Assembly: GCA_036507075.1 (NCBI GenBank) | Contig: DASXQR010000010.1 | Span: 26,485-90,484 of the forward strand | Reading direction: 5' to 3' | Source: Acidobacteriota bacterium | Lineage (GTDB): Bacteria > Acidobacteriota > UBA6911 > JACQSX01 | Length of the DNA: 64,000 bases | Notes under the pieces: generated by a model | Databases searched by the model: none | What the model was told of the DNA's origin: nothing | The model's input: the letters and a program-made list of their open reading frames with translations, nothing else | Program-made: the position numbers and the translations under genes | In this document: piece by piece, positions 8,265-54,225 of the stretch | Layout of the letters: each line of letters begins with the position of its first letter | Position numbering within the stretch: the first letter of the stretch is position 1

Positions 8265-9980
8265 ATGTCCGGGGAGATTTCAATGAAGAAGTATTACCGC
8301 CTGCTTGGCTTCCTGCTTGCATTTCCTGCCGTATTGGGCTTTCTTGGCGCGCCGGAGAAGAAGGTTTATCCCTATCGCTGGGTGCGCGTCAGCAGCGGGC
8401 TGAGAGACGATGCGGAAGTCGAGCGCGTCCGCAAGATTGTCCAGGCGGCCTCCGGGCACGGGCTGAACGGGATCGCGCTTTCGGCGGGCCTGGATCAGCT
8501 CGATATGAAGCAGCCCGAATATTTTCGACGACTGGAGCAAGTGCGGCAGATATGCGCCGAGGCCAAAGTCGACGTCATTCCGTCGTTCATGTCGGCCGGA
8601 TACGGCGGAGCCGTCCTGGCACACGACAAGAACCTGGCCGCCGGGCTTCCGGTGCGCGACGCGCTGTTCGTTGTTCATGAAGGCAAGGCCGATTTTGCCG
8701 CCGATCCGGCGGTGAATCTTGAAAACGGCGGTTTTGAAGGGACAAAAGAGGGGCTGCCCATGTCATGGCGTGTGGCCCAGCCCGGGACCGCCTCGATTGA
8801 TACGGCTGTTTTTCATGAAGGCAAATCCTCACTGCGATTCCACAATCTGGAAGATCCAAGACAGCCGGCGCGCGTCAGCCAGACGGCGCGGGTCCGCCCC
8901 CACCGCTGCTACCGGGTCAGCTTCTGGATCCGCACCGAAAGCCTCGGCGCGTCGGATCCTTTCGGCTCGGGCAACGTCCAGCTCGATGTGCTGGGAGGCG
9001 AGGAGAAACGCCCGCTTCAGTACGAAAATCCGCGTTTTCCCAACGACGATCAGTGGCACCGCGTCGCAGTCGGATTCAACAGTTGGGGATATGACAGGGC
9101 CGACATCTCGCCGAAAGTCCGGGGCAGCAAAGGCGGCACAGTCTGGATAGACGATTTGCGAGTCGAAGAAGCCGGCCTGGTTAATCTGCTGCGCCGCGCA
9201 GGGACTCCGCTCGTGGTCCGCGGCGAATCGAACAGCACCGTGTATGAAGAGGGGCGCGATTTTGCGCCGGTGTCTGACCAACGGCTGAATTTCCGATACG
9301 ACCATGACGGGCCATCCATTCAGATTCTCCCGGGCAGCCGCATCGTGGAAGGAGAGCGCCTGCGCGTCAGTTTTTTCCACGGAACAAACATTTACAACGG
9401 CCAGACTCCGGTATGCATGTCCGAGCCCAGGCTGTACGAAATCTGGCGCACCCAGGCGCGCCTGGTACATCAGGCGCTCGCGCCGGGAAAGTACCTTCTC
9501 AATATGGATGAGATCCGTACCGGAGGATCGTGCGAGGCGTGCAAAAAGCGAGGCGCGACGATGGGCCAGATCCTGGGCGACTGCCTCACAAAACAGGTCA
9601 ATCTGCTGCGGGAAGTGAATCCGAAAGCGGAGATTTTTGTCTGGTCGGACATGCTCGATCCCAATCACAACGCCAATCCAAACAAGAAGTACTATTACCT
9701 GGCGGAAGGGATTTTCACCGATTCATGGAAGCATGTCCCCAAAGACTTGAACATCGTCTGCTGGTATTACGAGAAACGGGCCGAGAGCCTGCGACATTTC
9801 TCGAACCTCGGCTTTCGCACCGTTGCGGGCGCGTATTACGACGCCGATAATCTCGACAACCCGCGCGGCTGGCTCGAATCGCTCGACGCGACTCCCGGAG
9901 CGGCGGGAATCATGTATACCACCTGGTTGAACAAATACGATCTGCTGCCCGGGTTTGGCGATCTTGTTTCGGGCCGCTGA
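8265..9980 (+). CDS. Secreted hypothetical protein with a central CBM4/9-like carbohydrate-binding module, possibly a glycoside-hydrolase-like protein
   Basis: Signal peptide (KKYYRLLGFLLAFPAVLG). The central ..NLENGGFEG...WIDDLRVEE.. block resembles CBM4_9. Coding-like codon usage over 571 aa. Confidence 0.55.
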   Translation: MSGEISMKKYYRLLGFLLAFPAVLGFLGAPEKKVYPYRWVRVSSGLRDDAEVERVRKIVQAASGHGLNGIALSAGLDQLDMKQPEYFRRLEQVRQICAEAKVDVIPSFMSAGYGGAVLAHDKNLAAGLPVRDALFVVHEGKADFAADPAVNLENGGFEGTKEGLPMSWRVAQPGTASIDTAVFHEGKSSLRFHNLEDPRQPARVSQTARVRPHRCYRVSFWIRTESLGASDPFGSGNVQLDVLGGEEKRPLQYENPRFPNDDQWHRVAVGFNSWGYDRADISPKVRGSKGGTVWIDDLRVEEAGLVNLLRRAGTPLVVRGESNSTVYEEGRDFAPVSDQRLNFRYDHDGPSIQILPGSRIVEGERLRVSFFHGTNIYNGQTPVCMSEPRLYEIWRTQARLVHQALAPGKYLLNMDEIRTGGSCEACKKRGATMGQILGDCLTKQVNLLREVNPKAEIFVWSDMLDPNHNANPNKKYYYLAEGIFTDSWKHVPKDLNIVCWYYEKRAESLRHFSNLGFRTVAGAYYDADNLDNPRGWLESLDATPGAAGIMYTTWLNKYDLLPGFGDLVSGR

Positions 9981-10270
9981 TTTGCGCGGAATTGCGCGGA
10001 TTGATATCGGCCGCCGATTTACGCGGAATTGCGCGGATTGATATCGGCCGCCGATTTGCGCGGACTGCGCGGATTGATATCGGCCGCCGATTTACGCGGA
10101 ATTGCGCGGATTGATATTGGCCGCCGATTTGCGCGGACTGCGCGGATTGATATCGGCCGCTGATTTGCGCGGACTGCGCGGATTGATATCGGCCGCCGAT
10201 TTACGCGGAATTGCGCGGATTGATATCGGCCGCGGATTTGCGCGAAATGCGCGGATTGACATCAGGCCGC
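9979..10270. repeat. Tandem repeat, about 8 units of 36-37 bp (GATTTRCGCGGAMTTGCGCGGATTGATATCGGCCGCC), each unit containing the palindrome ATCGGCCGCCGAT
   Basis: Strict head-to-tail periodicity between the stop of the upstream gene and glyA. Alternating unit variants (TACGCGGAATTG / TGCGCGGACTG). Confidence 0.9.
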
Positions 10271-11600: not shown

Positions 11601-11616
11601 CTTTTCCTTTGTGTTC

Positions 11617-11662
11617 TTTGTGTCTTTGTGGTGAATCAATTTCTCACCACAAAGACACAAAG
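11617..11662. repeat. Perfect 19-bp stem hairpin (CTTTGTGTCTTTGTGGTGA ...9 nt... TCACCACAAAGACACAAAG). Member of the 'CACAAAG' palindromic repeat family and a possible terminator of glyA.
   Basis: Exact inverted repeat in the glyA-dinG intergenic region. Related motifs recur at 24225-24379, 28407-28527, 45690-45725 and 63130-63270. Confidence 0.55.
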
Positions 11663-11681
11663 GGCACAAAAGATATTACAC

Positions 11682-15767: not shown

Positions 15768-16388
15768 ATGCAGAACAGAACACTGCCGGCAGTCATTGTC
15801 AGCCTGGTTGCCGGGTTGATCATCGGCTTTTTCGGCGGAGTGGCTTACGACTCGCAGAAGGCCGTATCAGCGCAAACGACAGCCGACCGTTCTGCTCCTG
15901 CCGACGCGACCCAGCCGGATAATTCCAAGCTTCCGGAAAACCATCCTTCCAAGGAAGTGATGGAAAAGGTCACCCATCTGCTGGAGCACGCCCAGAAGGA
16001 TCCCAATGACAAGGATTCGCGCATCGAACTGGGCAATATCTTTTATAACCTCGGCCAGTTCGAGCAGGCGATCAACTATTATGGCCAGGTCCTGGAGCTC
16101 GATCCCCGCAACGTAAACGTGCGCACGGATATGGGAACGTCATATCACTTTCTAGGCGATCATGACCGTGCTCTGAAAGAGTTTGCCATCTCGCTGAACC
16201 TGGATCCGACACATGCGGAAACCCTGCAGAACATGGGATGGGTGAAGTACAACGGAAAAAAGGACTACAAAGGCGCGCTCGAGGCCTGGAATAAGCTGCT
16301 TGCCACGCATCCGGACTATCGGCATGCCGATCAAATCCGCAAGCAGATCGAATTGGTGAAGAAAGAAATGGCGGGTGGAAAGAGTTAA
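15768..16388 (+). CDS. Membrane-anchored TPR-repeat protein
   Basis: N-terminal TM helix followed by 3-4 TPR units (..GNIFYNLGQFEQAINYYGQVLELDP.. etc.). Confidence 0.75.
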   Translation: MQNRTLPAVIVSLVAGLIIGFFGGVAYDSQKAVSAQTTADRSAPADATQPDNSKLPENHPSKEVMEKVTHLLEHAQKDPNDKDSRIELGNIFYNLGQFEQAINYYGQVLELDPRNVNVRTDMGTSYHFLGDHDRALKEFAISLNLDPTHAETLQNMGWVKYNGKKDYKGALEAWNKLLATHPDYRHADQIRKQIELVKKEMAGGKS

Positions 16389-16648
16389 TGCTCGGGCTGC
16401 TGATTCGACTAATCCTGATCCTTTTTATTCTTTACTTCATCCGCAAGGCGCTGCGAAGCCTGATGGGCGCGAGCACCGGGTCGCGCATGCCGCGCCAGAA
16501 TCGGGCTCGCGAGATCCGGGGAACGATGATGAAAGACCCGGTCTGCGGCACATACGTTGATACTCAAGCCTCGATTCGCGTCAACAGGAACGGTAAAGAT
16601 TTTTATTTTTGCTCGGAAGCCTGCAGGCGTCAGTTCGCGGCCAATTGA
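16388..16648 (+). CDS. YHS/TRASH-domain membrane protein
   Basis: N-terminal TM helix and a C-terminal DPVCGTYVD...GKDFYFCSEACRRQF metal-binding YHS motif. Start overlaps the upstream stop (ATGA). Confidence 0.7.
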   Translation: MLGLLIRLILILFILYFIRKALRSLMGASTGSRMPRQNRAREIRGTMMKDPVCGTYVDTQASIRVNRNGKDFYFCSEACRRQFAAN

Positions 16649-17651: not shown

Positions 17652-17679
17652 GTAGCAAGCCGGAACATCCAAGAAAACT

Positions 17680-17853
17680 TTAACCGCCAAGATCGCCAAG
17701 AACGCTAAGAATGGCGCAAAGGACGGGGGCTGAAACTTGAAGGATGAAGGCCATAAAAGCCGTGTCACGCAGCGGTACTGTGCCTTCATCCTTCAAGTTT
17801 CAGCCCCCGTCCTTTGCGCTCTCTTGGCGCTCTTGGCGATCTTGGCGGTTAAG
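17680..17853. repeat. Palindromic MITE-like element family C (TTAACCGCCAAGATCGCCAAGAACGCTAAGA..GGACGGGGGCTGAAACTTGAAGGATGAAGGC ... mirror image)
   Basis: ~65-bp arms form a near-perfect inverted repeat around a ~40-bp loop. A second copy lies at 25745-25914 and a partial arm at 16725-16760. It sits between convergent nadK and the DHS-like gene. Confidence 0.7.
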
Positions 17854-18940
17854 TTTTCTTGGCCGCATTCTCATACTCCTGTTGCAACTGCTCCATCAGA
17901 CTGTCGAGTTTCTCCAGGAGTCGTTTCGGCTGCCTTGGTTTCCGTTTGTTGAGGGCGTAGGCGGCCATCAGCGGGAGCGCGATGGTGCAGTCCAGATAAC
18001 AGACGACCGCGTCGGGCAGCCGATCGGGATCAATCTTCCCCCAGCTCACCGCTTCTCCCGGGGTCGCTCCCGACAGACCTCCCGTGTCCGCGCGGGCGTC
18101 GGTCACCTGTAGGAAGTAATCATGTCCCTTCTCTTCAATTCCAAGAACCTCCTGAATCTGAGGCTCAGTTTGCAATACGAAATTCTTGGGCGAACCACCG
18201 CCCAGAATGACTACGGCGCTTTTTCCACCGGAACGCTTCGCTCCCAGCACGATCGCCGCCGTCTGATTTACGTCGCGGTTGACATCGAACACGAGCTTGT
18301 TACCGCTGAGAGCTTTCGCAGCCACGTTCATGCCGATTGAGCTGTCACCCGGCGATGAGGTAAAGATCGGAACCGCGTGCGTGTAAGCTGCAGACAAAAG
18401 GGAGCGGCGGTCCAGTTTGAGCATCCGCTCGCGTTCCGCCATGTAGCGGCCGATCCGATGATGAAATTCAGCCGTGCTCATGGAAGACTGAAACTCCGGG
18501 GCTGAAATCACTTCACGGTAGAAGGCGTCGGTGGACAGCAGCACGTCATATTCGAAAAAGATGTCATAAATTCGGACTACCCCTTCTTCACGCAGCACCA
18601 CGTCGCTCACGTTAGGAGTTCCGCGATGCATTTTCAGCCCGATGCCGAAGTGCGTGTCATGGTACAGATTGGCGCCCGTGCTTACAATCCAGTCTATGAA
18701 GCCCGCCTCAATCATCGGAATCAACGCGCTCCGCCCCAAGCCTGCGGGAGTAAGGGCCCCTGTGATGCCGACACCTACGGTCACGTCCGCCTCCAGCATC
18801 TTTTCGGCAAACAGATGGCATGCCTCGCGGAGCCGTGCCGCGTTGTAAGCCAGAAATGTCTGATCAATGAGCTCGACCAGAGACGTATCACCGCGGATGA
18901 TCAGCGGATCAATGGGCTTGCCTGTCAGGTATTTGCTCAT
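17849..18940 (-). CDS. Deoxyhypusine synthase family protein (homospermidine-synthase-like)
   Basis: ..[14 protein letters not shown].. / ..VFDVNRD.. / ..[10 protein letters not shown].. / ..[13 protein letters not shown].. are conserved DHS-like motifs, including the active-site Lys region. RBS GGAGGA is upstream of the trimmed start (MSKYLTG). Confidence 0.88.
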
Positions 18941-19748
18941 GATAAGGGAGTCCTCCAAGTTCCGAGCCGCCGGCGCTGCGGTGCAATCATATCTTGAACA
19001 GCTCGAATGTGGTGATCCCACCGGCAACGCATAAAAAATCCGAAAAAGCCGGGACCACGAAGGCGCGAAAGCGCGAAATGAGTCAGATCCCTTGGCTACC
19101 AAAAGGGACTGAGTATCGAAATGTTTGCGGTTCGGGTCATGCAGGAAGACTGGAACAATTTTCGATTTCGCGGCTTCGCGCCTTCGCGGTGGGTTTCTTC
19201 ATACCTTTCAAGCCCAATGGAGCTTGAGACACTGCTTGCATGTATACTGTCCTTCTGAGGGCCTCATTCAGGCCGCCTTGAATGAAAAGAATACGGTTCT
19301 GGGAACCGACAGGAAGATTGCGGCGCAAGCTGCTGGTGCTTGTGTTGACATCTTTCTTTGTGTCGGTTTTGACTGCAGAGTGTGTCCATCTCATCGACGA
19401 AACGATCGATCACGCCAGAGGTCACGCTTCAAGCGGCAGGCAGGGACCTGGCGGAGACTGGTCGCACCGCTGCCACAGTTGCCCCACCTCTCAGCCCCAG
19501 AGTCAGGGTCCGACACTGGATTTTCACATCGGGCTCAGCCCGACGCCTCTCGAACGCCCCACAAACAATGGGGGTCGTGGCTCCCTCTCTCTTGTAAGGC
19601 TTCCCGCCAAGCGCGCACCGCCCGTTTCAGTCTGACGTATCCTGAGTGCAGGACAACGACAACGCGTCCTGCTTAATCCATGCCGACTCTTCGGGCCATA
19701 CCAGGCGCCGGATGAAGTCGGCTCCTGAGTTTTCATTGGAGAAGCCGT

Positions 19749-21149
19749 ATGTATCGTGTCAGACAGAAATTGGCATTTGCCATCATTTTCTTCTCTTCTC
19801 AGATGGTGTGGAGTCCAGCGGCGCCAGCCGGTCAGCAGCCGGCCGAGCCGCGGAAGAATGAAGCACGACAAGATTTGACCCCTTCAGACGCCGCCGCTTT
19901 GAATGTGATACGCACCCAGATAGAGGCAATGAAGGCGGATTACGAAAAACGCATCAAGGACCTGGAGGACCAACTCGCACAGCTCCAATCCCGCCTGTCA
20001 CAGCAACCGGCAAGCGGCGAAATGGTGCAGGAGCCGCAGGCCCCGCAACCCGTGGTGCAGTCGATTCCCGGCGCGCTCAATCCCGCCATTTCTGTGATCG
20101 GGAATTTCGTGGGGAGAGGCGACACTCAAAAAGTGTTCAACGAAGACGGGGACCGCCTCGACAATAAAATGAACCTGCGGGAAGGCGAAATCGACATGAG
20201 AGTGCCGATCGATCCTTACGCGGATGGAGTATTGATCACGTCTTTGGAATCGGAAACTCCCGGAGCCTTTTCCGTCGACGCTGAAGAAGCCTACGTGAAC
20301 ATAAAAAAGCTCCCGTTCCTGGACCGCACACCACTGGGGCTGAGATTGAAGGTGGGCCGTTTTCGACCTGCGTTCGGCAAGATAAACATCCTGCACACGC
20401 ACGATCTTCCGCAGAGCTTTCGCCCGTTGCCGGTTGAAGAATTCATGGGTCCCAAAGGATTCAATCAGAACGGCATCTCGGCGAGTTTCTTCATTCCAAC
20501 GCCATGGGACGCCAATTCCACGTTGGATGCAACAGTAGAATTCCTGGGCGGCGGCGACGTGGCCATCTCTCCGCAAAAGCAAGCGCGAAATGCCTACCTG
20601 GCGCACCTGCGATGGTTCCGGACCGCCCGCGACACACACAATTTTGAGCTCGGCCTTTCCAGCTACTATCACCCCCGAGGCAATGACATCCGTTCCGCCA
20701 ATTTTAATGGCGTCGATTTTCTCTATCGCTGGAAGCCTTTGCGCCAGGGCGAATGGAAGTCATTCCTGCTGGGCGGTGAAATGATGTTTGCCGGTCGCGC
20801 TTACCCCGATGCGGGAGAACCGCCGGAGGTTGCCCGACTTTCCGATGAGATCCAGCCCGGATCCGGCAAGCCGTTCGGCTACACGGCATTCACTCAGTAT
20901 CAGTTCGACCGACGGAAATACGCCGGTATTCGGTGGGACCAGACCACCGCGCTTGTGAACCCCGGCTTGCGTCGCCGTGGGTTAACGCCGTACTTCTCAT
21001 ATTATTTCAGCGAGTTCCTGCGTTTCCGGCTGAACTACGAGCACCGCTGGAGCGATTTCTCGACCGAGGACCGCCGAAACTCGGTATTTCTTGAGTTGAA
21101 CTGGGTTTTCGGCGCCCATCCGCCCGAGCCGTTTTGGGTAAACAAATGA
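19749..21149 (+). CDS. Outer-membrane protein: signal peptide, N-terminal coiled coil, probable C-terminal beta-barrel (porin-like). First gene of a metal-uptake locus.
   Basis: Signal peptide, then a heptad-like IEAMKADYEKRIKDLEDQLAQLQSRL. The C-terminus has alternating hydrophobic beta-strand patterns ending ..NWVF. Confidence 0.55.
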   Translation: MYRVRQKLAFAIIFFSSQMVWSPAAPAGQQPAEPRKNEARQDLTPSDAAALNVIRTQIEAMKADYEKRIKDLEDQLAQLQSRLSQQPASGEMVQEPQAPQPVVQSIPGALNPAISVIGNFVGRGDTQKVFNEDGDRLDNKMNLREGEIDMRVPIDPYADGVLITSLESETPGAFSVDAEEAYVNIKKLPFLDRTPLGLRLKVGRFRPAFGKINILHTHDLPQSFRPLPVEEFMGPKGFNQNGISASFFIPTPWDANSTLDATVEFLGGGDVAISPQKQARNAYLAHLRWFRTARDTHNFELGLSSYYHPRGNDIRSANFNGVDFLYRWKPLRQGEWKSFLLGGEMMFAGRAYPDAGEPPEVARLSDEIQPGSGKPFGYTAFTQYQFDRRKYAGIRWDQTTALVNPGLRRRGLTPYFSYYFSEFLRFRLNYEHRWSDFSTEDRRNSVFLELNWVFGAHPPEPFWVNK

Positions 21150-21194
21150 TCCCAAACAACATTTTTCGTTTGTAAACATCGGAACGCTTATCAG

Positions 21195-22223
21195 GTGGTG
21201 CATATGAAATTTTTTAGATACGGCTTGGTTTTGTTCCTTTCTGTTCTCAATTCAGGACCGGCATTCGGGGCGGCGCAAAAAGTGCGTGTGGTATGTACTC
21301 TTCCAACCCTGCGGGCACTGACCGAGGAAGTAGGGGGTAATCGCGTCGATGTGATCAGCCTTGCAAAGGGAGATCAGGATCCGCACTTTGTCACTCCTAC
21401 CCCGGTTTTGATGAAAAAGACCCGGGAAGCGGATCTGTTCCTTGAAAACGGATTCTCGCTCGAATTATGGGCCGATGAGGTGGTCAACGGTTCCGGAAAT
21501 TCGAAGATCTTTCGGGGTACGCCGGGTCGGATTATCGCCGGAAGGAGGATTTCGGCACTCGAAATTCCGTCCGTCATCTCCCGCGAGCTGGGTGACATCC
21601 ATCCGCAGGGAAATCCACATGTCTGGCTCGATCCATTGCTGGCGAAAGTGGAAGCGGAAAACATCGCCGAGGCTCTCAAGTCAGCCGATCCGGCAGGGGC
21701 GAGCTATTATGACTCGCGGCTCGCCGATTTTGAAAGACGGATTGACCTGGCTCTATTTGGGTCGGAGCTTCTCAAGTCGGTGGGAATACAAAAACTCACT
21801 CGACTGGCGATGAGCGGCGAGCTGCATCGTTTCCTGGAGTCCAACAAGCTTACCGGCCAGGCCGGGGGCTGGCTGAAAGCTGCCGAACCTCTTCGAGGAA
21901 AGAAAGCGTACGAGTTCCACAAGGTATGGGTCTATTTCGCCCGTACTTTTGGCCTGCAGTTGGCCGGCACGATCGAAGAGCGGCCGGGGATCCCTCCGGG
22001 ACCGCAACACGTTCGGCAAGTGACCGAAAGAATAAAAGCGGAAAAGATCCCGCTTATTCTGGTGGATAATTTTTACGACGCCGCGCTGCCGCGAAACATC
22101 GCACGGCAAACAGGAGCAAGCGTTGTGGTGCTTCCCAATCAGGTGGATGGCGAGCCGGGGATCAAGACCTACTTTGATCTGATCGACCATATAATTCAGA
22201 AGATCGCGGCGGCGGTTAAGTAG
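21195..22223 (+). CDS. Metal (Zn/Mn) ABC transporter substrate-binding protein, ZnuA/TroA family
   Basis: Signal peptide. ..VVCTLPTLRALTEEVGG..VDVISLAKGDQDPHFV.P.. and ..DPHVWLDP.. are hallmark cluster-9 SBP motifs. Confidence 0.85.
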   Translation: MVHMKFFRYGLVLFLSVLNSGPAFGAAQKVRVVCTLPTLRALTEEVGGNRVDVISLAKGDQDPHFVTPTPVLMKKTREADLFLENGFSLELWADEVVNGSGNSKIFRGTPGRIIAGRRISALEIPSVISRELGDIHPQGNPHVWLDPLLAKVEAENIAEALKSADPAGASYYDSRLADFERRIDLALFGSELLKSVGIQKLTRLAMSGELHRFLESNKLTGQAGGWLKAAEPLRGKKAYEFHKVWVYFARTFGLQLAGTIEERPGIPPGPQHVRQVTERIKAEKIPLILVDNFYDAALPRNIARQTGASVVVLPNQVDGEPGIKTYFDLIDHIIQKIAAAVK

Positions 22224-22229
22224 AAAGTT

Positions 22230-22722
22230 TGCGAGTTGCGGGTTTGCGGGTTGCGGGTTTGCGCGTTGCGGGTTTGCGCGTTTGCGGGTTTGCGCGTTGC
22301 GGGTTTGCGCGTTTGCGCGTTTGCGGGTTTGCGGGTTGCGGGTTGCGGGTTTGCGGGTTACCGGGTTGCGGGTTTGCGCGTTTGCGGATTTGCGGGTTTG
22401 CGGGTTACCGGGTTGCGGGTTTGCGCGTTGCGGGTTTGCGCGTTGCGGGTTTACGGGTTGCGAGTTTGTGGGTTGCGGGGTTTGCGGGCTCAAACGATTC
22501 AGAGCCAGTCGCCGGTTGAAAAGCAGAGATTAAAAATTATTAAAAATTAAAAATTCCGAAAATTTCGAATTTTCAATTTTGAACCCGAACCTAAAGCGAA
22601 ACCCGAAACCTCATAATCCGGAAACCCACAACGTGGAACCCGTAACCCGTAAACTCGTAACCCGGAAACCCATAACCCGTAGACCTGGAACCCGTAACCC
22701 GGAAACCCGTAACTTGTAACTC
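22230..22722. repeat. ~490-bp inverted microsatellite: (GCGGGTT/GCGCGTT)n over ~270 bp, an AT-rich loop, then the complementary (AACCCGY/AACCCGTA)n array
   Basis: Heptamer periodicity is directly visible. The second half is the reverse complement of the first, giving a giant potential hairpin between the metal-binding-protein gene and the permease gene. Confidence 0.9.
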
Positions 22723-22742
22723 AAGCTGTAGCGCGAGGGCGC

Positions 22743-24194
22743 ATGCTCAGTTTTTCAGAACTAGCCTGGATGGTGACGCCGTTTCTGGCGTGTCTGGTGC
22801 TGTCCATCAACCATGTATATCTCGGTATTCACGTAATTGCCAGGAAGGTAATCTTCGTCGATCTGGCGCTGGCTCAAATCGCGGCTCTGGGCGCCACCTA
22901 CGCCATTACGCTTGGATATGATGCCCGCGAAGACGCGCTTAGAGTTTCGCTCTTTTCCCTTGCCTTCACGTTTGCGGGGGCGGGCGCATTCGCCATCGCC
23001 CGCATGCGCAAGGAAAGAGTTCCACAGGAAGCATTCATCGGAATCATTTATGCCGCAGCCTCCGCAGCAGCGATACTGATCCTTTCCAAATCCACCACCG
23101 GCGGTGAAGAACTCAAGCACATGCTGGTCGGCGATGTCCTGCTGGTGACAAACAAAGAAGTGCTTGAGATGGCTCTGCTGTACGCGGCTATCGGACTGTT
23201 TCACGTGATCTTCCGCCGGCAGTTCCTCACTATTTCTCTCGACCCCGAGACTGCGGAGAGGAAGCTCAATATTCGATTCTGGGACATCCTGTTCTATATG
23301 TCCTTTGGCGTGGTGATTACCAAGTCGGTAGCGATCGTCGGCGTGCTTCTGGTGTTCTCTTACCTGGTGGTGCCGGCCGTCATAGCCCAGATGTGGAGCA
23401 ATACGGTTCGCGGAAGACTTTTCCTGGGGTGGCTTGTGGCCATCGTTGCCAGCACCTTCGGCATTCTCTGGTCGTTCCGGGCTGATTATCCGACCGGCCC
23501 AGCCGTGGTTGTAATGCTCTTCCTGTTTCTGGTGCTTTCCGGCGTTATCTATTATCTGCAGCATGCGCCGTCGAAGCTGCGCGCCGCCGGCAACGTTGCC
23601 GCGATTTCACTGGCTGCCGTGCTCTTCTTTGCGGTTCTCTCTCATTTCCGCAAAACCGCTCCAGCGGAAGCCGGTCCGCGCCCGGGGGCGGTGGAGCTGT
23701 TGTTAAACGAGCTCAAGCACGATGATGAAGCGCGCCAACTGGACGGCATTCGCCATTTGGCGGAAATGCGCGATCCCCGCATTGTCCCGGCTCTGGAAAA
23801 TCTGTTAAAGCGCGCGCAGTCCGAGCAGGTCATCGAAGCCGCGGTGGATGCGCTGGCAAAGCAGGAAGATCCCCATGCCGCTCCGGCGCTGCGAGCGGCG
23901 GCACAAACTACTCATGACGATTTTCTGCAGCTTTCCATCGCAAGAGCCCAACTGGCGGTCGGGGACAAAGCGGGCTTTGAGACATTGATGCGGATTCTCA
24001 GCGGCCAGGGAGTAACCGTGGCGCGCCGGCAGGCCAACGAGTTAATCGAACGGTATGCCGGACGCTCATTCGGCTACAATGCCGACTATCCGGCGGCCCA
24101 GAATCGCGCAGCGCTGCAGCGAATCGAAGAATGGTGGAAAAGAGAAGGCAGCCGGCTGCGCTGGGACGCGAAAGCGAAGCGCTTCGTCGGCTAG
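22743..24194 (+). CDS. Metal ABC transporter permease (ZnuB/TroCD family) fused to a C-terminal HEAT-repeat domain
   Basis: N-terminal ~300 aa with 8-9 TM helices typical of ABC-3 permeases. The C-terminal ~170 aa carries PBS-lyase HEAT repeats (..RQLDGIRHLAEMRDPRIVPALENLL.. / ..AAVDALAKQEDPHAAPALRAA..). Confidence 0.8.
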   Translation: MLSFSELAWMVTPFLACLVLSINHVYLGIHVIARKVIFVDLALAQIAALGATYAITLGYDAREDALRVSLFSLAFTFAGAGAFAIARMRKERVPQEAFIGIIYAAASAAAILILSKSTTGGEELKHMLVGDVLLVTNKEVLEMALLYAAIGLFHVIFRRQFLTISLDPETAERKLNIRFWDILFYMSFGVVITKSVAIVGVLLVFSYLVVPAVIAQMWSNTVRGRLFLGWLVAIVASTFGILWSFRADYPTGPAVVVMLFLFLVLSGVIYYLQHAPSKLRAAGNVAAISLAAVLFFAVLSHFRKTAPAEAGPRPGAVELLLNELKHDDEARQLDGIRHLAEMRDPRIVPALENLLKRAQSEQVIEAAVDALAKQEDPHAAPALRAAAQTTHDDFLQLSIARAQLAVGDKAGFETLMRILSGQGVTVARRQANELIERYAGRSFGYNADYPAAQNRAALQRIEEWWKREGSRLRWDAKAKRFVG

Positions 24195-24224
24195 CGCTTG
24201 ATTCTGCAGGTTCGGCAAGGATTG

Positions 24225-24379
24225 TTCACCACAAAGGCACACAGAACACGAAGCAAGAGGCGGGGCGGGCAGAGACCGGTCAGCTTTAAAAACTCGTCGC
24301 TACGGGTCACCTTATTTTCGCTGACCGGTCTCTGCCCGCCCCGCGTCTTACTTTGTGCCCTTTGTGCCTTTGTGGTGAA
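24225..24379. repeat. 155-bp near-perfect palindrome (TTCACCACAAAGGCACA...GGGCGGGCAGAGACCGGTCAGC ... GCTGACCGGTCTCTGCCCGCCCC...TGTGCCTTTGTGGTGAA), a bidirectional-terminator-like hairpin
   Basis: Long inverted repeat between convergent genes (permease-HEAT on + and HAD hydrolase on -). Its arms carry the CACAAAG family motif. Confidence 0.65.
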
Positions 24380-24396
24380 AAGGCTTTTCCGAATTT

Positions 24397-25005
24397 TCAA
24401 ATGAGCACGCCACGCCTTCTAAACTCCGCAAGCAACTGTTCCTCGTTCTCGAAGCGGATGCTGAAAATCCCCATGCTGCGCGCCGCAACTAGGTTCTCCT
24501 CCAAATCATCCACGTAAACTGTCTCATCCGGTCTGGACGCGGCGCGCGCCATGGCTGCCTGGAAGATTTCCGGTTCCGGTTTCATCGCTCCCACTTCGAA
24601 AGAAAGAATGGCATCGTCAAATTCTCCCAGAACTGGATATCTTGTCCGCATAAAACCAAAATGCAGCGGGTTGGTATTGGACAACAGCATCAGTCGATAA
24701 CGTTCCTTCAGCGACCGCAGTGTCTCGGGTCTTACCAGCATTTCTTCATGGAAAATCGCGCTCCAGATATCCGCAAACTGCTGCGCCGTGATATCGCACA
24801 GTTTCAGGCGCGCGCAGATCTCATCAAAGAAATCCTCATTTTTCACTCTGCCGCTTTCAAAATCATTGATTCGCGGCCAGCCTCGAAGCAGGTCCACCAT
24901 TTCAGCAGTGGAGTACGAGGTTCTTCCCTGCAGGCCCTGCAGCGCTAAGCGGGGATCGAACTTGATCAGGACATTCCCGATGTCGAACAAAATCGTGCGG
25001 ATCAT
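24397..25005 (-). CDS. HAD-superfamily hydrolase (subfamily IA-like)
   Basis: ..ILFDIGNVL.. is the DxG/D-type motif I. ..LLSNTN.. and ..VDDLEEN.. resemble HAD motifs II and IV. Confidence 0.8.
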   Translation of the reverse strand: MIRTILFDIGNVLIKFDPRLALQGLQGRTSYSTAEMVDLLRGWPRINDFESGRVKNEDFFDEICARLKLCDITAQQFADIWSAIFHEEMLVRPETLRSLKERYRLMLLSNTNPLHFGFMRTRYPVLGEFDDAILSFEVGAMKPEPEIFQAAMARAASRPDETVYVDDLEENLVAARSMGIFSIRFENEEQLLAEFRRRGVLI

Positions 25006-25694: not shown

Positions 25695-25744
25695 GTCACG
25701 TTACCGGTTTCCGGGCGCGCAAGCCTGGATTATTCACAAATCTC

Positions 25745-25914
25745 AACCGCCAAGAACGCTAACAGCGCTAAGAAAAGCGCCAAGGACGGGGGCTGAAACT
25801 TGAAGTATGAAGGCACCACGCATAGGCTTGACGCGGTTGATAACTTTCATACTTCAAGTTTCAGCCCCCGTCCTTGGCGCTCTCTTGGCGTTCTTGGTGT
25901 TCTTCGCGGTTAAG
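25745..25914. repeat. Palindromic MITE-like element family C, second copy
   Basis: Arms ..CCGCCAAGAACGCTAACAGCGCTAAGAAAAGCGCCAAGGACGGGGGCTGAAACTTGAAGTATGAAGGC.. and their mirror image. ~80% identical to 17680-17853. Confidence 0.7.
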
Positions 25915-25954
25915 ATTTGTGAATAATCCAGGTTTACGCGCCTGGCAGCCAATG

Positions 25955-28406: not shown

Positions 28407-28527
28407 ATCACCACAAAGACACAGCCCGGCCGCTGGCTGCAACCAAAAAGCCGTCGACGTGCACGTGAGCCTCCTCGGCTTTTTCTTTGGTTGCGGCCTA
28501 CGGCCGGGCTGTGCCTCTGTGGTGAAA
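28407..28527. repeat. Dispersed palindromic repeat family B, complete hairpin copy (CACCACAAAGACACAGCCCGGCCG..GCAACCAAAAAGCCGTCGACGTGCACGTGAGCCTCCTCGGCTTTTTCTTTGGTTGCGGC..CGGGCTGTGCCTCTGTGGTGA)
   Basis: Left and right halves are reverse complements. The right half is ~85-90% identical to 15680-15750 and 47560-47635. Confidence 0.7.
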
Positions 28528-29596: not shown

Positions 29597-29923
29597 TACC
29601 ACCTTTTTTTCACCTCTCTGGTCATTGTCCTCCCAGACGCACATTCGAGTCAAGCTGTCTCTGGCGCAGGTAGTGATCTGGCTTGTGCCCGTCGAGAAAA
29701 AGACTTCACCACAGAGGTTTAGCGCGGCAGAGCCGCAACCAAAAGTCAAGGAGAGACGGCCTGAGGGCCGTCTCTCTGCGGTGCCCTGCCAAGCTGAGAC
29801 GGCCGTCAGGCCGTCTCTCCGCTCCCGAATGATTTGCGCAGGCCCCGAAAATTCTCAATGGTGCACGCCAGGAGAAACTGATAGAGACGGGCGGGAGAAC
29901 AAAGTAGCCGATAGGAGGTCCGA

Positions 29924-43022: not shown

Positions 43023-44273
43023 TTGAAGATCAAAGTCATTGTACTCCTGCTATTTGCGATGATCATGCTCGCTATAGTAGGTGAGGCGCAGGTACCTAAA
43101 CCAAAATTTAGACGCGTGGCTCAGCGAATGCCCGACAACTATATTGTTGTCTTTAAGGACACTGTATCGACTGCTGATGTTCCCTCAATTGCCCGGCAGA
43201 TCGCTAGCGCACACAATTCTGTGGCCCGCTTTATCTATCAATACGCCCTTAAGGGTTTTGCAGTTCAGGTGTCTGAAGCTGACGCTATTGAGATCAGCAA
43301 CGACTCTCGCGTTGAATGGGTAGAGGAAGATGCCGTCGGATCCATTGTTGAGCAGTGGGGCCTGGATAGGATCGATCAGCGGTATCTACCATTGGACAAT
43401 GTCTATTCCTTTTGGCAACTTGCGGCAAACGTAAACATTTATGTCCTAGATACCGGCATTCGGGCCACTCACTCAGAGTTTGGGGGACGAGTAGTTTCTG
43501 CTTTCGATGCTGTTCAAGCAAACTGCTATTGTGGTTTCACATGTGACAATGCATTCGCTGCTACCCGAGGGCATGGGACGGCTGTTGCTAGTGTTGCTTC
43601 AGGGGCAACATACGGCGTGATTAGAAACGCGACCCTTTATGACGTCAGAGTGGTTAATTGTGACGGCGGTGTGGATTCTGCAAAACTCATCAGCGGAATC
43701 AATTGGGTTACTCAGAATTTCGTCGGTCCTGCGGTTGCGAATATTAGTAGCGCTATCGCTGCGAATGACTCGGTCGATACCGCGGTGCGAAATTCGGCAG
43801 CGGCAGGGGTTCTCTATGTTGTTGGTGCGGGCAATGACAGTACAGACGCAATAGGTTATTCCCCTGCCCGCATGGCCGACATTGAGGTTCTCACCGTTGG
43901 CGCAACCGACATTGTCGATCGACGCGGCCATGACTGGGATCCCCAGAATCCGATAAAAGGTTCGAATTGGGGCTCCGTAGTGGATATCTTTGCGCCAGGT
44001 ACGAATATTAATGTCGCATGGTCAGATAGCGACTCTGATACGCGGACGGGTATAAATGGCACCTCCTTGGCAAGCCCGTACGTTGCAGGAGTTGCGGCGC
44101 ATTACAAGCAGCAGCACCCCGGGGCGAGCCCGACTACGGTTGCTAATTGGATCATCGGTATCGCAACTTCAGGTGTTGTAACTGATCAGCGTCCAGACGG
44201 ATGGATTCTCGGAATTGACCAAGTTCATCCGGGCACGCCCAATCGGCTGCTGTTTCAACCGTTCTCGTTCTGA
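43023..44273 (+). CDS. Secreted subtilisin-like serine protease (S8 family, proteinase-K-like) with N-terminal I9 inhibitor propeptide
   Basis: Signal peptide. Propeptide ..YIVVFKD.. Catalytic triad in context: ..VYVLDTGI.. (D), ..HGTAVASVASG.. (H), ..GTSLASPYVAGVAA.. (S). GC ~48%. Confidence 0.9.
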   Translation: MKIKVIVLLLFAMIMLAIVGEAQVPKPKFRRVAQRMPDNYIVVFKDTVSTADVPSIARQIASAHNSVARFIYQYALKGFAVQVSEADAIEISNDSRVEWVEEDAVGSIVEQWGLDRIDQRYLPLDNVYSFWQLAANVNIYVLDTGIRATHSEFGGRVVSAFDAVQANCYCGFTCDNAFAATRGHGTAVASVASGATYGVIRNATLYDVRVVNCDGGVDSAKLISGINWVTQNFVGPAVANISSAIAANDSVDTAVRNSAAAGVLYVVGAGNDSTDAIGYSPARMADIEVLTVGATDIVDRRGHDWDPQNPIKGSNWGSVVDIFAPGTNINVAWSDSDSDTRTGINGTSLASPYVAGVAAHYKQQHPGASPTTVANWIIGIATSGVVTDQRPDGWILGIDQVHPGTPNRLLFQPFSF

Positions 44274-44336
44274 GGAGCGAAGTGATCGAAGAAAAAAGGC
44301 ACTTGGCGACTTTTTTCCTGCTCTCGCATCTTTTGT

Positions 44337-50303: not shown

Positions 50304-50452
50304 CGAATGGGGAATGCGGAATGCGGAATGGGGAATGCGGAATGTGGAATGAGGAATGAGGAATGAGAAGTGGTTTGCTCCAAGTTGTGAAGAGATAACT
50401 TGAAGTTATTCCGTATTCCGCATTCCCAATTCCGCATTTCGCATCCCCATTT
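50304..50452. repeat. Inverted microsatellite: (GAATGSG)n x ~9, loop, (CSCATTC)n
   Basis: GAATGGGGAATGCGGAATGCGGAATGGGGAATGCGGAATGTGGAATGAGGAATGAGGAATGAG ... TTCCGTATTCCGCATTCCCAATTCCGCATTTCGCATCCCCATT. The halves are reverse complements. Confidence 0.85.
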
Positions 50453-50746: not shown

Positions 50747-50756
50747 TTGTCCGTGT

Positions 50757-52839: not shown

Positions 52840-53049
52840 CGTATTCGAAGGGGAACGAAGCCGGACTATACCAGTGGAATTTCGAATTCAAAATTGAAAA
52901 ATTATCAAAGTTAAAGTTTCGTACTTTGGTGGTCAAAGAATTTGAAACCGGCTGAGAGCGATAGGGTAGGGAGAGCCGCTAGGCTCCCCCACCCCTTCGA
53001 ACCGGACGAGCGGATTTCCCGCATCCGACTCTCCAGTTGATAGGTCACC

Positions 53050-54186: not shown

Positions 54187-54225
54187 AAGAGCTCTCCAAG
54201 ATTCAGAATATTAGAACCTATAGCC

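What the first reader, a model, noticed from the sequence alone, without database searches (positions are those of the whole stretch)
19749..24194. Metal-uptake locus with an OM porin-like protein, a ZnuA-type binding protein, and a permease fused to HEAT repeats, but no ATPase gene; a 490-bp inverted microsatellite sits where znuC would be
The binding protein and permease are separated only by the giant (GCGGGTT)n/(AACCCGY)n hairpin at 22230-22722. ABC-3 transporter operons normally carry the ATPase between or next to these genes.

The permease carries an unusual C-terminal cytoplasmic HEAT/PBS-lyase domain. Either the ATPase was lost when the repeat expanded, or it is encoded elsewhere and the HEAT domain mediates a novel interaction.
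Basis: partly seen in the sequence, partly recalled or inferred. Interest (0 to 1): 0.6.

Follow-up and report, generated by a model that had tools for sequence, protein, structure and literature searches.

The report
ATPase-less metal-uptake operon plus junk hairpin
The locus is one copy of a widespread four-gene metal-uptake module (a ribosome-stalling sensor peptide, a porin, a binding protein and a permease) that never carries its own ATPase gene, and the big repeat inside it is a recent insertion of a kind of intergenic hairpin that litters this genome, not the scar of a lost ATPase.

Summary
The genes and the repeat are real and sit at the stated coordinates.

In 84 related loci from more than 10 phyla, the same cassette always has the ZnuA-like gene directly next to the permease gene. 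The median gap is about 10 nt, and 19 loci show a 4-nt overlap. None has a linked ABC ATPase. So the missing ATPase is ancestral, and the 519-nt inverted heptamer array is specific to this lineage. Relatives at 85-87% identity lack it. It is one of at least 12 such hairpins in the 64-kb window.

Charge and topology counts place the HEAT tail in the periplasm, behind a tenth transmembrane helix, not in the cytoplasm. Short homologues without the HEAT tail also lack an ATPase.

It is a CruR/DUF2946-like leader peptide with an export anchor, a CxxC motif, a 43-aa spacer, and RAPP three residues before the stop codon. This points to metal-sensing control by translation arrest.

What powers the permease is unresolved. 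An unlinked ATPase is modestly favoured. A binding-protein-dependent transporter that needs no ATPase is the interesting alternative.

The parts
19282..19635 (+). Leader ORF (uORF) of 117 aa, CruR/DUF2946/CutF-like. It has an N-terminal hydrophobic anchor (residues ~16-32), an invariant His44, CxxC (CHSC, nt 19471-19482), a 43-aa spacer, RAPP (nt 19612-19623), three more residues (VSV), and a stop codon.
   Evidence: Translation. The same strict pattern (CxxC, 41-47 aa, [RK][AGS]PP, 1-6 aa, stop) occurs in 38 of 71 loci directly upstream of the porin gene. About 20 more loci match with relaxed Cys/His motifs. The pattern scored 37 hits in that position and 0 elsewhere among 8,673 six-frame ORFs. 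7 of 31 members hit Pfam DUF2946; the window's own member does not. Defining features come from PMC9426467.
19636..19748 (+). 113-nt leader-to-porin intergenic region, the presumed site of the regulatory decision (Rho termination or RBS masking).
   Evidence: In 32 loci this region has a median length of about 95 nt (range 18-154). Its fold is not significantly more stable than shuffles (z = -1.6). The role is inferred by analogy with CruR and CutF only.
19749..21149 (+). Outer-membrane porin-like protein of 466 aa: signal peptide, periplasmic coiled coil (~45-84), and a beta-barrel of about 16 strands.
   Evidence: No Pfam or NCBIfam hit. AF2 pTM 0.60. Foldseek hits DcaP (6eus), OmpF, OprO and AlgE. 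Conserved as the first structural gene in about 78 loci.
21195..22223 (+). Periplasmic cluster A-I metal-binding protein of the ZnuA/TroA family. The likely start is ATG 21204. Predicted ligands are His64, His142, His242 and Asp295.
   Evidence: PF01297 at 3e-48. Best NCBIfam matches are AztC and MntC, all below cutoff. Alignments to solved MntC, ZnuA and Lmb structures show the DPH, PHVW, EFH and D positions.
22227..22488 (+). Left arm of the inverted microsatellite: about 34 units of GCGGGTT(T), G-rich on the mRNA strand and prone to G-quadruplex formation.
   Evidence: TRF period 8/15/23 with 79% matches. 23 GGG runs and two canonical G4 windows. It starts 4 nt after the znuA-like stop codon.
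22489..22596 (+). AT-rich centre of the element (32% GC), itself made of degenerate AAAAATT/AATTTTC units.
   Evidence: A similar AT-rich core lies next to a different heptamer array in relative L087.
22597..22720 (+). Right arm: about 16 units of AACCCGN. It is C-rich and G-poor on the mRNA (C 0.35, G 0.17) and is the imperfect complement of the proximal half of the left arm.
   Evidence: The same unit family occurs at 50926-51025.
22743..23567 (+). Permease, ABC-3-fold transmembrane domain (residues 1-275, nine helices). TM2 carries an invariant D40...Q45 in place of the Asp-x3-His site. The coupling-helix loop lies at residues 164-181.
   Evidence: PF00950 at 1e-35. Distant from ZnuB (2e-9) and PsaC (4e-8). 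Conservation profile across 83 sequences.
23574..23642 (+). Extra tenth transmembrane helix (residues 278-300).
   Evidence: AF2 helix at 278-300. Mean Kyte-Doolittle hydropathy is 2.15 over 19 aa in 70 homologues, with a positively charged loop before it (+2.2) and net negative sequence after it.
23688..24143 (+). HEAT/alpha-solenoid domain (residues 316-467), predicted to be periplasmic.
   Evidence: HEAT_2 at 1e-9. pLDDT about 90. Resembles alphaRep/PBS-HEAT proteins. Net charge -8.7, and topology by loop counting.
24211..24393 (.). Hairpin with 74-nt arms (85% complementary) between the convergent permease and HAD-hydrolase genes. It marks the likely 3' end of the operon.
   Evidence: The only Rfam matches are sub-threshold miRNA-precursor hits, which simply reflect a long hairpin.

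Best explanation
**Operon layout.** The locus is a four-gene operon that runs from 19282 to 24194. It starts about 470 nt before the coordinates given in the finding.

**Leader peptide.** The operon is headed by a small exported leader peptide of the CruR/DUF2946/CutF type. By analogy with those systems, the ribosome stalls on the RAPP motif when the metal is scarce. This keeps the downstream genes expressed. When the CxxC/His motif of the nascent chain senses the metal, the stall is relieved and the operon shuts off.

**Structural genes.**
- A porin-like outer-membrane channel with a periplasmic coiled coil.
- A ZnuA/TroA-type periplasmic metal-binding protein with a His3-Asp site.
- An ABC-3-fold inner-membrane permease with an extra tenth helix and a periplasmic HEAT domain.

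**Missing ATPase.** The module is conserved as a unit in more than 10 phyla and never includes an ATPase gene. The absence is therefore ancestral, not a loss in this genome. I favour an unlinked nucleotide-binding subunit encoded elsewhere, because the coupling-helix loop is strongly conserved. This step is inferred, not shown.

**The repeat.** The 519-nt inverted heptamer array is a recent, lineage-specific insertion or expansion. It belongs to a class of intergenic SSR hairpins that is abundant in this genome. It landed in a junction that is normally 0-30 nt long. At most, it uncouples permease translation from the binding-protein gene and acts as an RNA hairpin, G-quadruplex or C-rich attenuator that lowers permease relative to binding protein. 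It may equally be neutral.
For: **Shown: cassette conservation and no ATPase.**
- The order and composition of the cassette hold in 84 loci.
- Only the cassette genes are shared across loci.
- No cassette-linked ABC ATPase was found by motif or by HMM, and the E. coli control worked. The 7 ATPase ORFs seen in 6 loci belong to complete modABC, MacAB-type or livFG systems.

**Shown: the repeat is recent.**
- The gap between the binding-protein and permease genes has a median of about 10 nt, and 19 loci have a 4-nt overlap.
- The only other large gaps hold a reverse-strand gene (L044) or non-repeat DNA (L026).
- The repeat is absent from relatives at 85% and 87% identity.
- There are 12 hairpin loci in this window, and different ones occur in relatives.

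**Shown: the uORF.**
- The motif set and spacing are conserved and specific to this position.
- Some members show weak DUF2946 hits.
- Published CruR features match: CXXC, a 45-aa spacing, RAPP three residues from the C-terminus, and an export signal (PMC9426467).
- RAPP/RGPP uORFs upstream of metal-homeostasis genes and porins have already been catalogued (PMC12992588).

**Inferred.**
- Periplasmic HEAT, from the nine-helix ZnuB/PsaC topology plus the charge pattern.
- An ATPase acting in trans, from conservation of the loop ISLDPExAEasGiNvRlWD across phyla. This loop corresponds to the ZnuB coupling helix at residues 154-162.
Against: - No candidate unlinked ATPase was identified, and whole genomes could not be searched.
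- In the papers found, multitask ATPases are described only for type I importers, not for type II/ABC-3 systems.
- A module that spreads across phyla as a unit yet always depends on a host-encoded partner is awkward to explain.
- In the window's own protein the coupling loop has lost the conserved Ser-Gly (AERK-LN), as has its 87% relative.
- The window's uORF does not reach the DUF2946 HMM.
- The leader intergenic region shows no significant structure or C>G skew.
- Nothing measured here shows that the repeat has any effect on expression.
Confidence: 0.6

Rival explanations
1. The module works without any ATPase. The ABC-3-fold membrane domain has become a binding-protein-dependent facilitator or secondary carrier. 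In this picture the His3-Asp binding protein delivers the cation, docking gates the channel, and the membrane potential drives uptake. This would parallel TRAP and TTT systems, but on a type II ABC scaffold.
For: - 0 of 84 loci from more than 10 phyla have a linked ATPase, in both HEAT-bearing and short forms.
- There is no other conserved neighbour.
- The cassette sits in unrelated flanks in each genome, as a self-contained mobile unit would.
- The clade is distant from ZnuB and PsaC (E about 1e-9).
- The canonical TM2 Asp-x3-His site, which is essential in PsaC and ZnuB, is replaced by an invariant D...Q.
- The coupling loop has decayed in the window's lineage.
- No paper describing such a system was found.
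Against: - The coupling-helix loop is one of the most conserved segments across phyla and keeps the canonical S/D...A...G pattern. That is unexpected if nothing docks there.
- No type II ABC membrane domain is known to transport without a nucleotide-binding subunit (own knowledge).
- Absence from an operon does not mean absence from the genome.
Confidence: 0.3
2. One reading: a znuC-type gene once lay between the binding-protein and permease genes and was deleted or overwritten when the microsatellite expanded.
For: The only support is position. The repeat fills the one long non-coding gap in the operon.
Against: - No orthologous locus has an ATPase there or anywhere nearby.
- The ancestral junction is 0-30 nt, often a 4-nt overlap.
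- Relatives at 85-87% identity that lack the repeat also lack an ATPase.
- There is no ATPase remnant in any frame of 22224-22742.
Confidence: 0.02
3. One reading: the HEAT domain is cytoplasmic and either replaces the ATPase or recruits an unlinked one.
For: - The fusion is conserved and under selection.
- HEAT repeats are typical protein-protein interaction modules (own knowledge).
- The AF2 model could not place the domain relative to the membrane.
Against: - A tenth hydrophobic helix follows the nine-helix ABC-3 core, whose C-terminus is cytosolic in ZnuB and PsaC.
- Loop charges alternate +/- in register and place the tail outside the cell membrane. The tail is net -8.7.
- 13 short-form loci have no HEAT tail and still have no ATPase.
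Confidence: 0.07
4. The repeat is a selected regulatory device rather than neutral clutter. One version is an intra-operon attenuator or mRNA-stability barrier that raises the ratio of binding protein to permease, as REP elements do between malE and malF. Another is a length-variable switch.
For: - The predicted RNA hairpin is very stable (z = -8.1).
- G4-prone and C-rich tracts lie on the transcript.
- 519 untranslated nucleotides sit inside an operon whose relatives are translationally coupled.
- Comparable G-rich heptamer pairs in Xanthomonas are transcribed and positionally conserved (PMC4692102).
Against: - The repeat is not conserved at this site even in the nearest relatives.
- At least 12 similar hairpins lie in all kinds of intergenic contexts in the window.
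- There is no terminator T-tract and no promoter-like site in it.
- Two independent assemblies show the same length, so no length variation has been observed.
Confidence: 0.3

Closest known systems
Cluster A-I (ABC-3, TC 3.A.1.15) metal importers: ZnuABC, AztABCD, PsaBCA/MntABC, TroABCD
   Same: - It has a ZnuA/TroA-family binding protein with His/His/His/Asp at the ligand positions.
- Its permease has the nine-helix ABC-3 fold.
- The coupling-helix loop follows the canonical pattern.
- The best NCBIfam matches are AztC and AztB.
   Different: - No ATPase gene is present in any of 84 loci.
- The permease is only about 20% identical to ZnuB and PsaC.
- The TM2 Asp-x3-His site is replaced by an invariant Asp...Gln.
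- There is an extra tenth helix plus a HEAT domain.
- A dedicated porin and a RAPP leader peptide are part of the operon.
- No Zur or Fur box was found.
CruR (Bordetella pertussis bp2923, DUF2946) and CutF (Rhodobacter capsulatus): metal-sensing arrest-peptide uORFs
   Same: - It is a small ORF heading the operon on the same strand.
- It has an N-terminal export anchor and a CxxC motif.
- The spacing to RAPP is 43 aa, against 45 +/- 2 in DUF2946.
- RAPP lies three residues before the stop codon.
- The intergenic region to an outer-membrane uptake gene is about 100 nt.
   Different: - The downstream genes are a porin, a ZnuA-type binding protein and an ABC-3 permease, not a TonB-dependent transporter, a multicopper oxidase or an RND pump.
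- The window's peptide does not score against PF11162.
- The metal is unknown, and the binding site looks like a Zn/Mn type rather than a Cu type.
- Stalling was not tested.
G-rich heptameric SSRs and their convergent inverted pairs in Xanthomonas (GGGAATC) and Nostoc (GGGGAYT), Rehm et al. 2015; cyanobacterial STRR heptamers (own knowledge)
   Same: - The units are 7 nt long with a G3 tract.
- The arrays are intergenic and start within a few nucleotides of the upstream gene's stop codon.
- Arrays occur in pairs on opposite strands that can form a stem-loop or G-quadruplex.
- Length and sequence turn over rapidly between relatives.
   Different: - The unit sequence differs (GCGGGTT/T).
- The arrays are much longer: about 34 and 16 units, against at most 14 in Xanthomonas.
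- Many different unit sequences coexist in this one genome.
- The host phylum is Acidobacteriota.
REP/BIME elements inside operons, e.g. malE-malF in E. coli (own knowledge)
   Same: It is a stable intercistronic hairpin placed between a binding-protein gene and the permease gene. In E. coli such a hairpin protects the upstream mRNA and raises the ratio of binding protein to permease.
   Different: It has no REP consensus and no GTAG/CGTC tag. It is microsatellite-built and ten times longer. Any effect on mRNA is untested.
DcaP of Acinetobacter baumannii (PDB 6eus) and the phosphate porins OprO/OprP
   Same: It has an N-terminal periplasmic coiled coil followed by a barrel of about 16 strands. 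DcaP is the best Foldseek hit.
   Different: Sequence identity is only about 10%, TM-score is 0.4-0.5, and the model is of moderate confidence. Substrate and oligomeric state are unknown.
Multitask ATPases MsiK/MsmX serving ATPase-less importer operons
   Same: These are operons with binding-protein and permease genes but no ATPase, powered by a shared subunit encoded elsewhere.
   Different: They are described only for type I carbohydrate importers. Nothing equivalent is known for type II/ABC-3 metal systems.

Membership tests
ABC-3 / cluster A-I metal ABC importer (ZnuABC-type) | Periplasmic binding protein of the ZnuA/TroA family (PF01297) | tested here: met
   E = 3.2e-48, 165 bits against a cutoff of 29. 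There are 50 solved relatives.
ABC-3 / cluster A-I metal ABC importer (ZnuABC-type) | Four metal ligands in the binding protein (His, His, His/Glu, Asp) | tested here: met
   His64 (DPH), His142 (NPHVW), His242 (EFHKVW) and Asp295 align with the ligand positions of MntC, ZnuA and Lmb. The identities of the reference ligands come from my own knowledge.
ABC-3 / cluster A-I metal ABC importer (ZnuABC-type) | Membrane subunit of the ABC-3 family (PF00950) | tested here: met
   E = 1.2e-35. All NCBIfam equivalogs (AztB, ZnuB) score far below cutoff.
ABC-3 / cluster A-I metal ABC importer (ZnuABC-type) | Conserved TM2 Asp-x3-His coordination site (PsaC D46/H50, ZnuB D36/H40) | tested here: not met
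   The family has an invariant VDLALAQ. Q45 aligns with the His, and the Asp is shifted by one position.
ABC-3 / cluster A-I metal ABC importer (ZnuABC-type) | Cognate ATP-binding subunit encoded with the system | tested here: not met
   None in the 64-kb window. None linked to the cassette in 84 loci.
ABC-3 / cluster A-I metal ABC importer (ZnuABC-type) | ATP-dependent transport | not testable with these tools
   This needs a whole-genome census of ATP-binding subunits or biochemistry.
CruR / DUF2946 / CutF-like RAPP arrest-peptide uORF | Small ORF (<150 aa) immediately upstream of the regulated genes on the same strand | tested here: met
   117 aa at 19282-19635, 113 nt before the porin gene. 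Found in the same place in about 58 of 71 loci.
CruR / DUF2946 / CutF-like RAPP arrest-peptide uORF | N-terminal export signal or N-in/C-out anchor | tested here: met
   RRKLLVLVLTSFFVSVLTA, with a maximum 17-aa hydropathy of 2.16. The range across the family is 1.6-3.0. No dedicated signal-peptide predictor was available.
CruR / DUF2946 / CutF-like RAPP arrest-peptide uORF | CXXC motif | tested here: met
   CHSC at residues 64-67. The first Cys (C64) is invariant and the second (C67) is conserved in at least 90% of the 31 aligned members.
CruR / DUF2946 / CutF-like RAPP arrest-peptide uORF | RAPP/RGPP motif within a few residues of the C-terminus | tested here: met
   RAPP + VSV + stop. In the family, 21 members have RAPP, 14 RGPP and 3 RSPP, all 1-6 residues from the stop codon.
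CruR / DUF2946 / CutF-like RAPP arrest-peptide uORF | Fixed CXXC-to-RAPP spacing (45 +/- 1-2 in DUF2946) | tested here: met
   43 in the window. The mode is 43-44 and the range 41-47 in 37 of 38 loci.
CruR / DUF2946 / CutF-like RAPP arrest-peptide uORF | Match to the Pfam model PF11162 | tested here: not met
   The window peptide has no hit at E<=1. 7 of 31 relatives hit weakly, best 2e-4.
CruR / DUF2946 / CutF-like RAPP arrest-peptide uORF | Metal-responsive ribosome stalling that controls downstream expression | not testable with these tools
   This requires toeprinting or reporter assays.
Paired G-rich heptameric SSRs (Rehm et al. 2015) | Tandem 7-nt units containing a G3 tract, at least 4 units | tested here: met
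   About 34 units of GCGGGTT(T) with 23 GGG runs. Units are a 7/8-nt mixture.
Paired G-rich heptameric SSRs (Rehm et al. 2015) | Intergenic, close to the 3' end of the upstream ORF, with a convergent partner array on the other strand | tested here: met
   It starts 4 nt after the stop codon. The partner array lies at 22597-22720.
Paired G-rich heptameric SSRs (Rehm et al. 2015) | G-quadruplex formation | not testable with these tools
   Only sequence motifs were found.
REP / BIME | 20-40-bp palindrome with a GTAG/CGTC tag, high copy number, associated RAYT transposase | tested here: not met
   The element is 494 bp and microsatellite-built, with no such tag. No RAYT-like gene was seen in the window, but it was not searched for exhaustively.

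The most novel reading that the evidence does not exclude
A cross-phylum metal-acquisition module consists of a RAPP arrest-peptide sensor, a coiled-coil porin, a ZnuA-type binding protein and an ABC-3-fold permease with a periplasmic HEAT domain. In this reading it imports a transition metal with no ATP-binding cassette at all. It would be a binding-protein-dependent facilitator or secondary transporter that evolved from a type II ABC membrane domain. Its expression would be set by a nascent-chain metal sensor rather than by a Zur/Fur repressor.
Probability: 0.3. Interest if true: 0.85.

Novelty: new variant of a known kind. Interest (0 to 1): 0.6.

Why it matters
ABC-3 metal importers are textbook ATP-driven machines and their operons carry the ATPase. 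Here a distinct clade of the permease travels through Acidobacteriota, Binatia, Myxococcota, Bacteroidota, Ignavibacteriota, Planctomycetota, KSB1, Omnitrophota and others. The clade has 419 clusters at 50% identity and thousands of sequences. It always travels with its own porin, binding protein and leader peptide, and never with an ATPase.

There are two possible outcomes, and both are new.
- Type II importers can share an unlinked ATPase. That would be new for this class.
- A type II ABC membrane domain can work without one. That would change how the fold is understood.

The leader peptide extends the recently recognised RAPP/CxxC metal-sensing arrest peptides to a binding-protein-dependent importer. 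It also gives a directly testable regulatory model.

The repeat itself matters mainly as a caution. In this genome, long inverted microsatellites are ordinary intergenic furniture and should not be read as gene scars.

Tried and rejected
1. **Riboswitch or known RNA in the leader or in the repeat.** Rfam at gathering threshold on the whole window, and an E-value search on 19000-24500, gave nothing relevant. The only hits were miRNA-precursor noise on the 24229-24375 hairpin and one group II intron domain elsewhere.
2. **Zur/Fur/MntR/Mur boxes.** I searched 19000-19800, 21100-21230 and the repeat centre. The best matches miss 7-10 of 18-23 positions, and there are no perfect AT-rich palindromes. 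Acidobacterial box consensus sequences are unknown, so this is a weak negative.
3. **A conserved upstream 'CGCGCNCC(TCC)' DNA motif.** I first took it for an RNA element. It turned out to be the codons of the RAPP motif.
4. **A fifth conserved partner gene** (an alternative energiser such as TonB/ExbB or a GTPase). All-against-all clustering of flank ORFs found nothing shared beyond lineage-specific synteny.
5. **ATPases seen in six loci.** All belong to other complete transporters.
6. **AF2 of the permease to see where HEAT docks.** The transmembrane part had pLDDT below 50 with a shallow alignment, so no inference was drawn from it. Foldseek only recovered PsaC and alphaRep.
7. **The afdb50 fold library** was unavailable.
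8. **Promoter or terminator consensus inside the repeat.** None was found on the + strand.
9. **SD-masking structure in the leader intergenic region.** It was not significant. No C>G skew across loci.
10. **Literature searches** for ATPase-less ABC-3 systems or ABC-3+HEAT architectures found nothing.

Full report
**Observation**

The three genes are as described.
- 19749-21149 encodes a 466-aa protein with no Pfam or NCBIfam match.
- 21195-22223 encodes a ZnuA-family binding protein (PF01297, 3e-48).
- 22743-24194 encodes a 483-aa protein with an ABC-3 domain (residues 9-266, 1e-35) and HEAT_2 repeats (318-402).

Between the last two genes lies a 519-nt non-coding stretch.
- It opens with about 34 units of GCGGGTT(T) at 22227-22488.
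- An AT-rich centre follows.
- It closes with about 16 units of AACCCGN at 22597-22720.

The arms are unequal and only 70-74% complementary. The transcript still folds at -262.5 kcal/mol, against -200 +/- 7.7 for shuffles (z = -8.1).

The repeat is not an assembly artefact. A JGI contig matches the window over 18,291 bp with 2 mismatches and the same repeat length. A Logan contig is identical from inside the left arm onward.

No ABC ATPase is encoded anywhere in the 64 kb. This holds by Walker-A/signature motifs and by a ZnuC-seeded HMM that recovers E. coli znuC.

**Is the repeat where an ATPase used to be? No.**

I collected 84 related loci from metagenome and genome contigs. They come from Acidobacteriota, Binatia, Myxococcota, Bacteroidota, Ignavibacteriota, Planctomycetota, KSB1, Omnitrophota, Gemmatimonadota, Methylomirabilota and others.

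Every locus has the same order: porin-like gene, ZnuA-like gene, permease.

The gap between the binding-protein and permease genes has a median of about 10 nt, and 19 loci have a 4-nt overlap. Apart from this organism, the only large gaps hold a reverse-strand 302-aa gene (L044) or non-repetitive DNA (L026).

The closest relatives lack the repeat.
- L025 (85% identical permease) has a gap of about 25 nt.
- L087 (87% identical) has a 162-nt non-repetitive gap.

Seven ATPase ORFs occur in six loci. All belong to other complete systems: modABC, HlyD/MacB-type and livFG.

The absence of an ATPase is therefore the ancestral state of the module, and the repeat is a recent, lineage-specific addition.

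**What the repeat is**

The window holds at least 12 intergenic long hairpins whose arms are built from short tandem units.
- (GGAATGC)n/(ATTCCGC)n at 50305-50449.
- (GGGTTTTCG)n/(AACCCGAAA)n at 50755-51046.
- A 'TCACCACAAAG' family of hairpins, among others.

They lie between co-directional, convergent and divergent genes.

Relatives carry other such arrays at other sites.
- L087 has (CATTCCC)n after the permease and (GCGGAAG)n/(CTTCCGC)n further on.
- L007 has a CACAGAG hairpin.

The closest described class is the intergenic G-rich heptameric SSRs of Xanthomonas and Nostoc. In Xanthomonas, 70-75 cases form convergent inverted pairs, start close to the upstream ORF, are transcribed, and vary in length between relatives (PMC4692102).

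The element has no terminator T-tract and no promoter consensus.

It puts several things into an operon junction that is otherwise translationally coupled:
- 519 untranslated nucleotides;
- a G4-prone tract;
- a C-rich, G-poor tract (C 0.35, G 0.17);
- a very stable hairpin.

A polar or mRNA-stability effect that lowers permease relative to binding protein is plausible, as with REP elements between malE and malF (own knowledge). It is untested, and neutrality is equally possible.

A DNA motif CGCGCNCC recurs about 90-150 nt upstream of the porin gene. It proved to be the codons for Arg-Ala-Pro-Pro at the end of a small ORF.

In the window this ORF is 19282-19635 (117 aa). It has:
- a hydrophobic N-terminal anchor;
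- an invariant His;
- CHSC;
- 43 residues of spacer;
- RAPP, then VSV and a stop codon.

The conservation is strong and specific to this position.
- The strict pattern (CxxC, 41-47 aa, [RK][AGS]PP, 1-6 aa, stop) is present in 38 of 71 loci with enough upstream sequence. The spacing mode is 43-44.
- About 20 more loci have RAPP/RGPP with CxC or His/Cys variants.
- Among 8,673 six-frame ORFs, the strict pattern occurs 37 times, all in this position and none elsewhere.

Apart from the motifs, the peptides are only 17% identical.

Seven of 31 hit Pfam DUF2946 weakly. The window's own peptide does not.

[quoted passage not shown] In CruR, stalling at RAPP prevents Rho termination before a TonB-dependent transporter gene, and copper sensing by CXXC relieves the stall (PMC9426467).

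Related examples have also been published.
- CutF (PMC9973294).
- RAPP/RGPP uORFs catalogued upstream of TonB-dependent receptors, porins, PCuAC, YcnI and PepSY genes (PMC12992588).

The terms ZnuA, metal ABC transporter and substrate-binding do not occur in that paper's supplements.

No Zur/Fur-type box was found, and there is no Rfam RNA.

**The proteins**

*Porin-like protein.* AF2 (pTM 0.60) gives a signal helix, a 40-residue helix and about 16 strands. Foldseek's best hits are DcaP, which is also a coiled coil plus barrel, then OmpF, OprO and AlgE. Some homologues carry an N-terminal carboxypeptidase-regulatory domain.

*Binding protein.* It has His64, His142, His242 and Asp295 at the ligand positions of solved relatives. 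Its nearest NCBIfam models are AztC and MntC, all below cutoff. This suggests Zn or Mn, whereas the CxxC sensor is typical of Cu systems. The metal is unresolved.

*Permease.* It is only distantly related to ZnuB (2e-9) and PsaC (4e-8).
- The Asp-x3-His site is essential in PsaC (D46/H50) and ZnuB (D36/H40). Here it is replaced by an invariant VDLALAQ.
- The loop corresponding to the ZnuB coupling helix (residues 154-162) is ISLDPExAEasGiNvRlWD. It is among the best conserved segments across phyla.
- The window's lineage has lost the Ser-Gly in that loop.

**Where the HEAT domain sits**

ZnuB and PsaC have nine transmembrane helices. The helix after TM4 is periplasmic and the coupling helix after TM5 is cytosolic, so the N-terminus is outside and the C-terminus is inside.

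This family adds a tenth helix at residues 278-300, with mean hydropathy 2.15.

In 70 long-form sequences the net loop charges alternate as follows: -0.5, +1.8, -1.6, +2.2, -1.0, +1.6, +0.2, -0.7, +2.2. After TM10 the value is -0.6, and the HEAT domain is -8.7.

By the positive-inside rule the HEAT domain is periplasmic. It cannot stand in for a cytoplasmic ATPase. Thirteen short-form loci without it still lack an ATPase.

A role in docking the binding protein or the porin's coiled coil is speculation.

**Energy coupling**

This is the open question.

*For an unlinked ATPase:*
- the coupling loop is conserved;
- multitask ATPases set a precedent, although only in type I importers.

*For ATPase independence:*
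- 0 of 84 loci have a linked ATPase;
- the cassette has no other conserved neighbour and sits in unrelated flanks;
- the translocation site is altered;
- the clade is large and distinct (419 clusters at 50% identity with E<=1e-30), with the HEAT fusion dominant.

I put about 0.55-0.6 on an ATPase acting in trans and about 0.3 on ATPase independence. No tool available here could search whole genomes.

**Verdict**

The proposed link between the repeat and the missing ATPase is refuted. The HEAT-as-cytoplasmic-adaptor idea is unlikely.

The locus is a new variant of known kinds:
- an ABC-3 metal-uptake module that is ancestrally without an ATPase gene;
- headed by a CruR-like RAPP leader peptide;
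- in this organism, interrupted by an ordinary, if unusually long, member of a genome-wide family of inverted microsatellite hairpins.

Noticed in passing
window 11605-11673, 17675-17857, 19054-19190, 24211-24393, 25706-25950, 28408-28525, 29750-29820, 50305-50449, 50755-51046, 55846-56257, 59356-59461: At least eleven further long intergenic hairpins, many with arms built from 7-9-nt tandem units. Examples are GGAATGC/ATTCCGC, GGGTTTTCG/AACCCGAAA, GCAGAGN and CTTTGTG. This genome is saturated with such elements.
   Followed up: partly
window 17714-17819 and 25776-25881: Two copies of the same perfect palindrome with 36-38-nt arms (core GGACGGGGGCTGAAACTTGAAG). Each is nested inside a larger imperfect hairpin. 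This is a dispersed REP/MITE-like family.
   Followed up: no
window 9972-10270: A tandem array of about 8 copies of a 37-bp unit (GGCCGCCGATTTGCGCGGAATTGCGCGGATTGATATC, 90% matches). It starts at the stop codon of the CBM-containing ORF 8265-9980 and ends before the SHMT gene.
   Followed up: no
window 52961-53033 (-): An Rfam group II intron (domain V/VI) match at 42.5 bits, just over the gathering score, with no reverse-transcriptase ORF beside it. It lies between the lactate permease gene 51046-52839 and unknown low-GC3 ORFs at 53050-55056.
   Followed up: no
window 43023-45563 and 53050-56261: Blocks of ORFs with GC3 of about 0.47-0.52, against about 0.65 elsewhere. They include a subtilase and several ORFs without Pfam hits, and may be horizontally acquired.
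   Followed up: no
window ~16388-16648 (L001 485-745): A small YHS-domain (metal-binding) gene lies about 3 kb upstream of the operon, next to the NAD kinase gene.
   Followed up: no
window 19137-19394 (-) / L001 3234-3491: The public gene call for this region is an 85-aa ORF on the minus strand. It overlaps and hides the conserved plus-strand RAPP leader ORF, so the leader is likely to be missed by automatic annotation in general.
   Followed up: yes
L010 767-2759: In a Binatia MAG, a NikR-like regulator, a cytochrome c and a Sco1/SenC copper chaperone (CPDVCP) sit directly upstream of the leader ORF. A second ZnuA-like gene fragment lies at the locus edge.
   Followed up: no
L087 2474-2680: In the 87% relative, a (CATTCCC/CATTCCG)n array follows the permease stop codon. 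It is preceded by an AT-rich 'ttcgaattaaaaattaaaaatt' core that resembles the centre of the window's repeat. This hints that AT-rich cores and heptamer arrays travel together.
   Followed up: partly
P0129, P0132, P0134, P0142, P0149 (homologues of window 19749-21149): Some porin-like homologues are about 600 aa and carry an N-terminal carboxypeptidase-regulatory-like domain (PF13715/PF13620). This domain is common at the front of TonB-dependent receptors.
   Followed up: no
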